A DNA stretch of 32,000 nt from Candidatus Thorarchaeota archaeon (GTDB lineage: Archaea > Asgardarchaeota > Heimdallarchaeia > Hodarchaeales > Hodarchaeaceae). A program made the position numbers and the translations under genes. The stretch is taken from contig JBHLRO010000010.1 in assembly GCA_048882505.1 (NCBI GenBank), forward strand, positions 30,001 to 62,000, in the 5' to 3' direction. Of this stretch, positions 26,495 through 26,656 are shown one piece after another. The notes below the pieces were generated by a model. The model was given only the letters and a program-made list of their open reading frames with translations. It searched no databases and was not told the DNA's origin. Numbering within the stretch: position 1 is the first letter of the stretch; every line of letters begins with the position of its first letter.

Positions 26495-26656
26495 ATGTCC
26501 ATGGAAGAACTATTAACCTTAGAAACATATCCTGAGCTCAGCGAACCTTGGGATTTACCCTGCTATATTTGCGATCATCTGACCCGTTGTTCCATTGGCC
26601 AGGAATTTAACCCTATTGGCTGTCCATGGCTGAACCACTATCTCGCTTCAGTTTAA
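26495..26656 (+). CDS. 53-aa Cys4 mini-protein resembling the RPC39/C34/TFE-beta Fe-S domain
   Basis: Manual translation MSMEELLTLETYPELSEPWDLPCYICDHLTRCSIGQEFNPIGCPWLNHYLASV. GAGGT upstream; TTTAAAT at about 26438-26444; in-frame TAA at 26468-26470 rules out an N-terminal extension. Confidence 0.8.
   Translation: MSMEELLTLETYPELSEPWDLPCYICDHLTRCSIGQEFNPIGCPWLNHYLASV

What the first reader, a model, noticed from the sequence alone, without database searches (positions are those of the whole stretch)
26495..26656. Stand-alone mini-protein made only of the RNA Pol III C34/RPC39 and TFE-beta-type Fe-S domain
Seen: an unannotated 53-aa ORF with its own RBS and TATA-like box reads P-C-YI-C-DHLTR-C-SIGQEFNPIG-C-PWLNHY, i.e. 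PC-x2-C-x5-C-x10-C with NP before the last Cys and an aromatic/hydrophobic helix after it. An in-frame stop 27 nt upstream shows there is no winged-helix part. Established: this spacing is the [4Fe-4S] module at the C-terminus of human RPC39 (PCGLCPVFDDCHEGGEISPSNCIYMTEW, recalled from memory) and of archaeal TFE-beta, where it mediates dimerisation with RPC62/TFE-alpha. Inference: a WH-less module could be a split TFE-beta subunit, or a decoy/redox switch competing for TFE-alpha. Either would bear on the origin of Pol III-specific subunits in Asgard archaea.
Basis: partly seen in the sequence, partly recalled or inferred. Interest (0 to 1): 0.78.

Follow-up and report, generated by a model that had tools for sequence, protein, structure and literature searches.

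The report
Winged-helix-less TFE-beta of Hodarchaeales
This conserved 53-residue gene is the only relative of the transcription initiation factor TFE-beta in this Asgard (Hodarchaeales) genome, and it keeps just the iron-sulfur domain that binds TFE-alpha, having lost the DNA-facing winged helix found in other archaea and in eukaryotic RPC34/RPC39.

Summary
Window 26495-26656 (+) encodes a 53-aa protein with Cys23-x2-Cys26-x5-Cys32-x10-Cys43. It has an in-frame stop 27 nt upstream, an SD-like GAGGT and a TATA-like box. It is a real gene: it was found in 17 of 21 genus-mates, and dN/dS is about 0.05.

Homology to the TFE-beta/RPC34 Fe-S domain is now tested rather than recalled. A profile of Hodarchaeales sequences aligns to Thermoproteota TFE-beta with hhalign probability 97.7% (E 2e-12). 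A broader profile hits human RPC6 residues 284-315 (E 1.7e-5).

Of 400 Asgard genomes, 370 carry this domain, nearly always once. In the other Heimdallarchaeia families sampled it ends a 130-185 aa winged-helix + Fe-S protein. In the window's own order the frame is only 53-92 aa. The genome has no full-length TFE-beta and no recognisable WH-only half.

My reading is therefore not a decoy or a split gene. It is the order's sole, naturally minimal TFE-beta, equivalent to the engineered Sulfolobus delta-WH variant that still dimerises. A complex model with the host TFE-alpha passes (0.79 against a best control of 0.00).

This is a new variant of a known kind. First readers of this scan noted the same module in other genomes; those notes are unchecked.

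The parts
26438..26444 (+). TATA-like box TTTAAAT, 51-57 nt upstream of the start codon
   Evidence: Read from the sequence. The function is inferred. Relatives have A/T-rich upstream regions but no strictly conserved box.
26468..26470 (+). In-frame TAA that closes the reading frame upstream, so no N-terminal extension is possible
   Evidence: The stop-to-stop frame is 61 codons.
26483..26487 (+). Shine-Dalgarno-like GAGGT, 7 nt before the ATG
   Evidence: A GAGG/AGGA element lies at the same distance before the ATG/TTG start in 13 genus-mates.
26495..26656 (+). 53-aa gene: a winged-helix-less TFE-beta homologue (Fe-S domain plus a 22-residue N-terminal lead)
   Evidence: conservation and purifying selection. 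(homology to the TFE-beta/RPC34 Fe-S domain). (modelled pairing with TFE-alpha).
26558..26623 (+). P22-C23-x2-C26-x5-C32-x10-C43: the predicted [4Fe-4S]-ligating motif
   Evidence: The four Cys are invariant in 18 diverse relatives. They align to the four Cys of human RPC6 and of Thermoproteota TFE-beta. The spacing equals that of Sso TFE-beta C92/C95/C101/C112 (PMC4495717). The metal itself was not tested.
26624..26653 (+). C-terminal amphipathic helix (PWLNHYLASV), aligned to the W-L helix that ends TFE-beta and RPC6
   Evidence: helix 44-52 in a low-confidence model. Residues 44-53 contact the TFE-alpha tail helix in the complex model.
26671..26675 (+). T5 tract 15 nt after the stop codon, a possible archaeal oligo-T terminator
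   Evidence: Read; inferred only.

Best explanation
The ORF is the only TFE-beta-family gene of this Hodarchaeales genome. It consists of the C-terminal cubane [4Fe-4S] domain plus the short W-D linker that precedes it. The roughly 70-90-residue winged helix present in other Asgard and TACK TFE-beta proteins is absent.

Proposed mechanism:
- The four cysteines ligate a [4Fe-4S] cluster that folds the 30-residue knot.
- The folded domain docks on TFE-alpha, against the helix that follows the TFE-alpha winged helix and against the TFE-alpha C-terminal tail helix. This gives a minimal TFE-alpha/beta heterodimer.
- The heterodimer binds the RNA polymerase clamp and promotes open-complex formation.
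- The PIC-stabilising DNA contact normally made by the beta winged helix is missing.
- Because the cluster is oxygen-labile, the small subunit may also make TFE activity redox-sensitive.

Shown here: the gene is real, the homology holds, it is single-copy, the WH is absent, and no full-length copy exists. Inferred: cluster binding, TFE-alpha pairing (model only) and a role in initiation.
For: Real gene: conserved in 17 of 21 genus-mates and in both genomes of the second family of the order. dN/dS is about 0.05, and the start context is conserved.

Homology:
- hhalign of the Hodarchaeales-only alignment A1 against Thermoproteota TFE-beta (A5) gives probability 97.7% and E 2.2e-12 over 40 columns that include all four Cys.
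- Two A5 members pass Pfam's RNA_pol_Rpc34 cut-off.
- The A2 profile hits human RPC6 residues 284-315 of 316 at E 1.7e-5.
- Remote small relatives hit the last ~40-55 positions of PF05158.
- The A1 profile found a Thermoprotei WH+Fe-S protein (P0023/P0046) at E 3.9e-5 among 1.8 billion proteins.
- The A5 profile's best hit in the own genome is this ORF, at E 1.3e-7.

One per genome: 370 of 400 Asgard genomes have a match, nearly all a single one. Frames are 130-185 aa (WH+Fe-S) in the sister families f3-f7 and 53-92 aa in the own order.

No full-length or WH-only TFE-beta was found in the 94.6%-complete genome.

Experimental precedent (PMC4495717): in Sulfolobus the TFE-beta WH (delta 1-73) is dispensable for dimerisation and clamp binding. 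The Fe-S domain and its cysteines are essential. The TFE-alpha WH plus beta Fe-S core still drives DNA melting. The natural protein keeps 22 residues before the first Cys; the delta 1-73 construct keeps 18.

TFE-alpha is present, single-copy and of normal length.

Complex model of TFE-alpha + this protein + 4Fe-4S: score 0.79 (runs 0.79, 0.79, 0.72) against a best control of 0.00. That mark was reached by 58 of 80 solved complexes and 2 of 110 mismatched pairs. Contact agreement between runs is at least 89% and partner pLDDT at least 80. The interface uses TFE-alpha residues 114-128 and the tail 170-185, which agrees with the tail requirement reported in PMC4495717.
Against: - The protein itself gives no Pfam or NCBIfam hit even at E<=10. 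A profile of close relatives alone does not reach RPC6 in the PDB. The link needs intermediate sequences or profile-profile comparison.
- The complex pass may reflect the model's memory of solved RPC3-RPC6 structures. My own alignments and a riding ligand also depart from the tool's calibration.
- Metal identity (Fe-S or Zn), expression and TFE-alpha binding are untested.
- The neighbours are metabolic genes, not transcription genes.
- In a 41-column tree the WH-less forms do not group with the WH-bearing Heimdallarchaeia proteins, so simple orthology is not established.
- WH domains diverge fast, so a separate WH partner could have escaped my searches.
Confidence: 0.68

Rival explanations
1. 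An old WH-less paralogue ('mini-beta') that arose by duplication of TFE-beta. Where both exist it acts as an alternative or competing, possibly redox-controlled, partner of TFE-alpha. Hodarchaeales later lost the canonical copy and kept only the paralogue.
For: One Heimdallarchaeia genome of another family (G010) carries a 156-aa WH+Fe-S gene followed about 180 nt downstream by an 87-aa Fe-S-only gene. In the domain tree that short copy groups with the short proteins of the second Hodarchaeales family (UFboot 91 / aLRT 95). The genus's proteins group with other short forms (84/92), apart from the WH-bearing Heimdallarchaeia clade. The Hodarchaeales domain scores higher against Loki-type and Thermoprotei TFE-beta than against same-class WH-bearing proteins.
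Against: The tree has 41 columns, 34 of 66 forks are unresolved, and the G010 short copy sits on a very long branch of 1.92. That copy scores only 14 bits against the genus profile. Of the four genomes with two matches, G010 is the only one seen to pair a long with a short copy: both G047 copies keep the N-terminal part, and the second matches in G251 and G325 were not examined. In this genome there is nothing to compete with.
Confidence: 0.14
2. One half of a split TFE-beta: the winged helix is encoded by a separate, diverged gene elsewhere, and the two halves assemble on TFE-alpha.
For: Domain fission is common. The invariant N-terminal residues 2-12 of the mini-protein lie outside the modelled TFE-alpha interface and could dock another partner. 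The genome holds many small wHTH proteins.
Against: The WH profile of sister lineages gives a best E of 0.07 in the own genome. The best WH-region hit of the Thermoproteota TFE-beta profile (E 8.9e-6) is a 189-aa protein that passes Pfam MarR and does not hit Rpc34. No wHTH gene is adjacent in the window or in 20 related loci.
Confidence: 0.08
3. A small Fe-S or Zn protein recruited to a non-transcriptional role, for example electron transfer or maturation for the neighbouring flavoprotein, LigB-like enzyme or B12-radical-SAM enzyme.
For: Within the genus the gene always lies after an FAD-binding flavoprotein or LigB gene and before a B12-radical-SAM or ABC-2 transporter gene.
Against: The downstream neighbour varies, and LigB is present or absent. 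There is no synteny outside the genus. The gene has its own start signals and is divergent from LigB. If this protein does not serve as TFE-beta, the genome would have no TFE-beta homologue in that role, while 370 of 400 Asgard genomes searched have one. The TFE-alpha-contacting helix is conserved.
Confidence: 0.07
4. A chance ORF or a decaying remnant with no function.
For: It is very short. There is no direct family hit. It was not found in 4 of 21 genus-mates.
Against: dN/dS is about 0.05 with saturated synonymous sites. Twenty-nine columns are invariant across ten proteins. The four 'missing' cases are contig breaks or unassembled regions, not deletions.
Confidence: 0.02

Closest known systems
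Archaeal TFE-beta (Saccharolobus solfataricus; Blombach et al. 2015, PMC4495717)
   Same: The C-terminal domain has four Cys spaced x2, x5, x10 (Sso C92/C95/C101/C112), a Pro before the first Cys and a W-containing helix after the last. The profile-profile match is 97.7%. There is one copy per genome. A partner TFE-alpha is present.
   Different: It has no N-terminal winged helix: 53 aa against about 125 aa. It matches the engineered delta 1-73 variant, which dimerises and binds the clamp but stabilises the PIC less well.
Human RNA polymerase III subunit RPC6/RPC39 (POLR3F), e.g. PDB 7A6H chain P
   Same: The Fe-S domain at residues 284-315 aligns with all four Cys and the terminal W-L helix (E 1.7e-5 with profile A2).
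   Different: RPC6 carries three winged helices before the domain and is a stable polymerase subunit. A profile of the close relatives of the window protein alone does not reach RPC6.
Haloferax volcanii TFE-beta (PMC5861453) and yeast C34
   Same: These are lineage-specific reductions of the same family.
   Different: The loss is the opposite one. They keep the winged helix or helices and have lost the cluster cysteines. Here the winged helix is lost and the cysteines are kept.
WH+Fe-S TFE-beta of other Heimdallarchaeia, Loki-type and other Asgard lineages
   Same: They share the W-(D/N) linker and the Fe-S domain, and are mostly single-copy.
   Different: They are 113-266 aa with a winged helix. 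Some also have Lys-rich tails or an N-terminal zinc knuckle.

Membership tests
TFE-beta / RNA_pol_Rpc34 (PF05158) | C-terminal four-cysteine motif C-x2-C-x5-C-x10-C followed by an aromatic helix | tested here: met
   C23, C26, C32 and C43 are invariant. They align to the RPC6 and Thermoproteota TFE-beta cysteines. The spacing is the same as in Sso TFE-beta.
TFE-beta / RNA_pol_Rpc34 (PF05158) | Significant profile similarity to the family's Fe-S domain | tested here: met
   hhalign of A1 against A5 gives 97.7%, E 2.2e-12. A2 against PDB RPC6 gives E 1.7e-5. The A5 profile finds this ORF as its best hit in the genome, at E 1.3e-7.
TFE-beta / RNA_pol_Rpc34 (PF05158) | Score over Pfam's curated cut-off (28.4 bits) for the protein itself | tested here: not met
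   There is no hit at E<=10. Remote relatives reach 11-23 bits on the model's last ~40-55 positions. The model is 332 positions long and mostly winged helices.
TFE-beta / RNA_pol_Rpc34 (PF05158) | At least one winged-helix domain N-terminal to the Fe-S domain | tested here: not met
   Only 22 residues precede the first Cys, there is an in-frame stop 27 nt upstream, and a divergent gene starts 94 nt away. The same holds in all genus-mates and in the second family of the order.
TFE-beta / RNA_pol_Rpc34 (PF05158) | Binds a cubane [4Fe-4S] cluster | not testable with these tools
   This is inferred from the invariant cysteines only. It needs anaerobic purification with UV-vis/EPR.
TFE-beta / RNA_pol_Rpc34 (PF05158) | Heterodimerises with TFE-alpha (or RPC62) through the Fe-S domain | tested here: inconclusive
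   The complex model scores 0.79 against a best control of 0.00. That mark was reached by 58 of 80 solved and 2 of 110 mismatched pairs. Contact agreement is at least 89% and partner pLDDT at least 80. It is a model only, and solved RPC3-RPC6 structures may be remembered.
TFE-beta / RNA_pol_Rpc34 (PF05158) | Sole family representative in the genome, taking the place of TFE-beta in relatives | tested here: met
   There is one match in the own genome. 370 of 400 Asgard genomes have a match, nearly all a single one. Simple orthology against an old paralogue is not resolved.

The most novel reading that the evidence does not exclude
Hodarchaeales, the order of Asgard archaea reported as closest to eukaryotes (from my own knowledge, not checked here), initiate transcription with a TFE-alpha/mini-beta core that has no beta winged helix. 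The mini-beta would be either an ancient WH-less paralogue that displaced canonical TFE-beta, or a detachable, oxygen-labile switch whose invariant N-terminal peptide (residues 2-12, outside the modelled TFE-alpha interface) recruits a new, still unidentified partner that replaces the WH's promoter-DNA contact.
Probability: 0.25. Interest if true: 0.75.

Novelty: new variant of a known kind. Interest (0 to 1): 0.6.

Why it matters
TFE-alpha/beta is the archaeal counterpart of both TFIIE and the Pol III RPC62/RPC39 subcomplex. Its beta subunit has been described as winged helix plus Fe-S domain.

A natural, strongly conserved beta subunit made of the Fe-S domain alone is the in-vivo counterpart of the engineered minimal core. 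That core, TFE-alpha WH plus beta Fe-S, was shown to dimerise, bind the clamp and melt DNA. The natural protein therefore suggests that the beta winged helix can be dispensed with in a free-living lineage.

It also sets a constraint for scenarios that derive TFIIE-beta and RPC34 winged helices from an Asgard ancestor. The WH-bearing form is the common Asgard state, and the sampled Hodarchaeales have the reduced form.

In practical terms, it is a 53-residue, single-domain handle for studying the cluster, its redox lability and the alpha/beta interface. Annotation pipelines currently label it hypothetical.

Tried and rejected
- Direct Pfam and NCBIfam scans of the 53-aa protein gave nothing at E<=10.
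- A PDB search with the close-relative profile A1 gave only chance LIM/RING-type Cys matches, best E 0.023.
- A word-index search for longer (fused) relatives with A2 found none. Fused forms were instead found by the exhaustive profile search and by genome searches.
- A word-index search from the Thermoprotei protein P0046 returned only two relatives. Thermoproteota TFE-beta was collected through genome searches instead.
- The AlphaFold2 monomer model with 18 sequences had mean pLDDT 58 and pTM 0.26. That is too poor for a fold search, so none was run.
- An ESM Atlas feature search gave no usable hit.
- WH-only partner: the best candidate in the sister-lineage WH search is a 294-aa coiled-coil protein at E 0.07. 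The best candidate in the TACK profile search is a Pfam MarR regulator. Both were rejected as TFE-beta halves.
- A compensating fusion on TFE-alpha was rejected. TFE-alpha open frames are about 200-240 aa in the genus and 180-244 aa in sister families.
- Apparent absence in four genus-mates was rejected as loss. In G064 and G072 the syntenic region is cut by a contig end, and in G066 and G075 it is not assembled.
- No Rfam family or tRNA lies in 26300-27300.
- The domain tree is too short (41 columns) to decide between orthologue and paralogue.

Full report
**1. The observation**

Window 26495-26656 (+) is an open frame of 53 codons. Its cysteines are C23, C26, C32 and C43, which gives P-C-x2-C-x5-C-x10-C. 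N39-P40 precede the last Cys, and an aromatic helix (P44-W45...Y49) follows it.

Other features read:
- An in-frame TAA (26468-26470) closes the frame 27 nt upstream.
- GAGGT (26483-26487) lies 7 nt before the ATG.
- TTTAAAT lies at 26438-26444.
- A T5 tract (26671-26675) follows the stop.

The neighbouring LigB-like gene is on the other strand and starts 94 nt upstream, so there is no room for a winged-helix exon. No Rfam family or tRNA overlaps the region.

**2. It is a real gene**

A search of 5.8 billion proteins found an identical 53-aa protein and nine homologues of 55-90 aa at 70-81% identity. These are named hypothetical proteins of Candidatus Hodarchaeales or Hodarchaeota MAGs. Twenty-nine columns are invariant, including the four Cys and an N-terminal S-M-x-E-L-L-T block.

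Among 14 genus-mates, synonymous sites are saturated (median pS 0.75), median pN is 0.12, and dN/dS is about 0.05 where measurable. The start context is conserved: an ATG or TTG start, then Ser-Met, preceded by GAGG/AGGA.

Seventeen of 21 genus-mates have the gene. In the other four, the syntenic region is either cut by a contig end (G064, G072) or not assembled (G066, G075). These are not losses.

**3. What it is related to**

The protein alone hits nothing in Pfam or NCBIfam. A profile of close relatives does not reach RPC6 in the PDB.

An exhaustive profile search of 1.8 billion representatives found diverged small relatives of 56-93 aa and two longer proteins. In the longer ones the motif follows a winged helix: P0030 (259 aa) and P0023/P0046 (118 aa, Thermoprotei archaeon). 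Several of these hit the last ~40-55 positions of Pfam RNA_pol_Rpc34, with E from 7e-5 to 0.2.

A profile of 18 such sequences (A2) hits human Pol III subunit RPC6 residues 284-315 of 316 at E 1.7e-5. All four Cys and the terminal W-L helix are aligned.

I then collected TFE-beta from Thermoproteota genomes. Two of them pass Pfam's Rpc34 cut-off. hhalign of the Hodarchaeales-only alignment against this set gives probability 97.7% and E 2.2e-12 over 40 columns. In the reverse direction, the Thermoproteota profile's best hit in the window's genome is this ORF, at E 1.3e-7.

The Sulfolobus TFE-beta cluster ligands are C92, C95, C101 and C112, the same spacing (PMC4495717).

**4. Where the winged helix went**

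Searching 400 Asgard genomes with A2 found a match in 370, nearly always exactly one. Frame sizes differ by lineage:
- Other families of the same class (f3-f7): proteins of 130-185 aa with an N-terminal winged-helix-like domain, a conserved W-(D/N) linker, the Fe-S domain and often an acidic tail.
- Loki-type families: proteins of 200-266 aa, often with Lys-rich tails.
- The window's genus: 53-68 aa, with one 90-aa first-ATG reading (L021) that extends upstream of the conserved M-S-M-E-E start.
- The second family of its order: 58-92 aa, with no winged helix.

The own genome (94.6% complete) has one copy only. It has no Rpc34-family hit over the cut-off. It also has no WH-only relative. The sister-lineage WH profile gives a best E of 0.07, on a coiled-coil protein. 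The best WH-region hit of the Thermoproteota profile is a generic MarR regulator.

TFE-alpha is present as a single copy of ordinary length, so the winged helix has not moved onto it.

The retained piece begins at the W-D linker. It keeps 22 residues before the first Cys. The engineered Sulfolobus delta 1-73 variant keeps 18.

**5. How it most likely works**

Blombach et al. (PMC4495717) showed four relevant things:
- The TFE-beta winged helix is not needed for dimerisation with TFE-alpha or for clamp binding.
- The Fe-S domain and cysteines C92, C95 and C112 are essential.
- TFE-alpha needs its WH and its C-terminal tail for the interaction.
- The TFE-alpha WH plus beta Fe-S core can still trigger DNA melting, while the beta WH adds PIC stability.

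The Hodarchaeales protein is the natural equivalent of that core subunit.

A complex model of the host TFE-alpha (207 aa), the mini-protein and a 4Fe-4S cluster supports binding but does not show it. The score is 0.79 (three runs: 0.79, 0.79, 0.72) and the best of three controls is 0.00. That mark was reached by 58 of 80 solved complexes and by 2 of 110 mismatched pairs. The runs agree in at least 89% of contacts, and partner pLDDT is at least 80.

The confident contacts on TFE-alpha are residues 4-13, 114-128 (the helix after the WH), 139-143 and 170-185 (the tail helix). This fits the published tail requirement.

There are caveats. Solved RPC3-RPC6 structures may be remembered by the model. 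My own alignments and a riding ligand also depart from the tool's calibration.

I therefore read the gene as the order's sole, minimal TFE-beta, with confidence about 0.68. Cluster binding, pairing and function remain inferences.

**6. Rivals**

- Decoy role: this needs a full-length competitor, and none exists here.
- Split gene: this needs a WH half, and none was found, though fast-evolving WH domains could hide.
- Metabolic role for neighbouring genes: within the genus the gene sits after an FAD flavoprotein or LigB gene and before a B12-radical-SAM or ABC-2 gene. The neighbours vary, and the synteny ends at the genus.
- Old paralogue: this is the more interesting rival. One genome of another family (G010) has a 156-aa WH+Fe-S gene followed about 180 nt downstream by an 87-aa Fe-S-only gene. 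In a 41-column tree the WH-less proteins do not group with the WH-bearing Heimdallarchaeia proteins. The genus profile also scores Loki-type and Thermoprotei domains above same-class ones. The tree is poorly resolved and has long branches, so I hold this at about 0.14.

**7. Known or new**

TFE-beta is reported as present in Asgard archaea and is described as WH plus [4Fe-4S] (PMC7289017). Known reductions go the other way: haloarchaeal TFE-beta and yeast C34 lost the cysteines.

In the paper library, my first search found no paper holding both 'TFE beta' and 'Asgard'. PMC7289017 does hold both words, and it describes TFE-beta only as WH plus Fe-S. I found no description of a WH-less form. This is an absence in that library only.

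WH-less forms also occur in at least one other Asgard family (f26, 77-85 aa). They also appear in several diverged small proteins mostly labelled Hodarchaeales.

First readers of this scan flagged the same module in other genomes. Those notes were unchecked leads.

My verdict is a new variant of a known kind, of moderate-to-good interest for archaeal transcription and for scenarios on the origin of TFIIE-beta/RPC34.

**8. Limits**

- The monomer model was too poor (pLDDT 58) for a fold comparison.
- Metal identity and binding need bench work.

Noticed in passing
L141:801-1268 (+) and L141:1447-1707 (+) (genome G010, family f3, same class): There is a tandem pair: a 156-aa WH+Fe-S TFE-beta followed about 180 nt downstream by an 87-aa Fe-S-only copy. 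Of the four genomes with two matches, it is the only one seen to pair a long with a short form. Both G047 copies keep the N-terminal part, and G251 and G325 were not examined. It may be a snapshot of how the mini form arose.
   Followed up: partly
L096:1363-1605 (+) and L097 (minus strand; positions 1340-1594 of its reverse complement) (genomes G298/G297, family f26): A second Asgard lineage with small genomes (1.4-2.0 Mb) has 77-85-aa WH-less TFE-beta homologues. Their N-terminal leader is different and acidic/basic. No WH was seen in the upstream frames.
   Followed up: partly
L099 (genome G114) versus L102 (genome G113), family f13: In G114 the TFE-beta frame is only 82 codons because an in-frame stop interrupts the winged-helix region. 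G113 has an intact 121-codon frame. This could be a pseudogene, a sequencing error or a recoded stop.
   Followed up: no
L033, L037, L043-L045 (family f19); L131, L138 (Thermoproteota phylum): These TFE-beta homologues carry 70-110-residue Lys/Ser/Thr-rich, histone-tail-like N-termini, and some have KE/AE-repeat C-termini. Similar extensions appear in two distant lineages.
   Followed up: no
L040:1456-2064 (-) (family f20): This TFE-beta homologue has an extra N-terminal C-P-Y-C-x8-H-K-C zinc-knuckle-like motif ahead of the winged helix.
   Followed up: no
G000 contig 2, 231179-231799 (L004:1336-1956; TFE-alpha): TFE-alpha of the genus has an acidic insertion of about 20-25 residues inside the winged helix (residues about 42-63). 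The insertion is absent from the second family of the order and from sister families. The zinc ribbon has only three Cys plus a His (C137, H141, C156, C159).
   Followed up: partly
window 26657-27173: A 517-nt stretch between the mini gene and the B12-radical-SAM gene has no ORF of 100 aa or more and no Rfam or tRNA match. Its content is unexplained.
   Followed up: partly
window 22184-23494: This is a 436-aa protein made almost entirely of leucine-rich repeats (Pfam LRR_4/LRR_8, E down to 7e-52), next to a transglutaminase-core protein.
   Followed up: no
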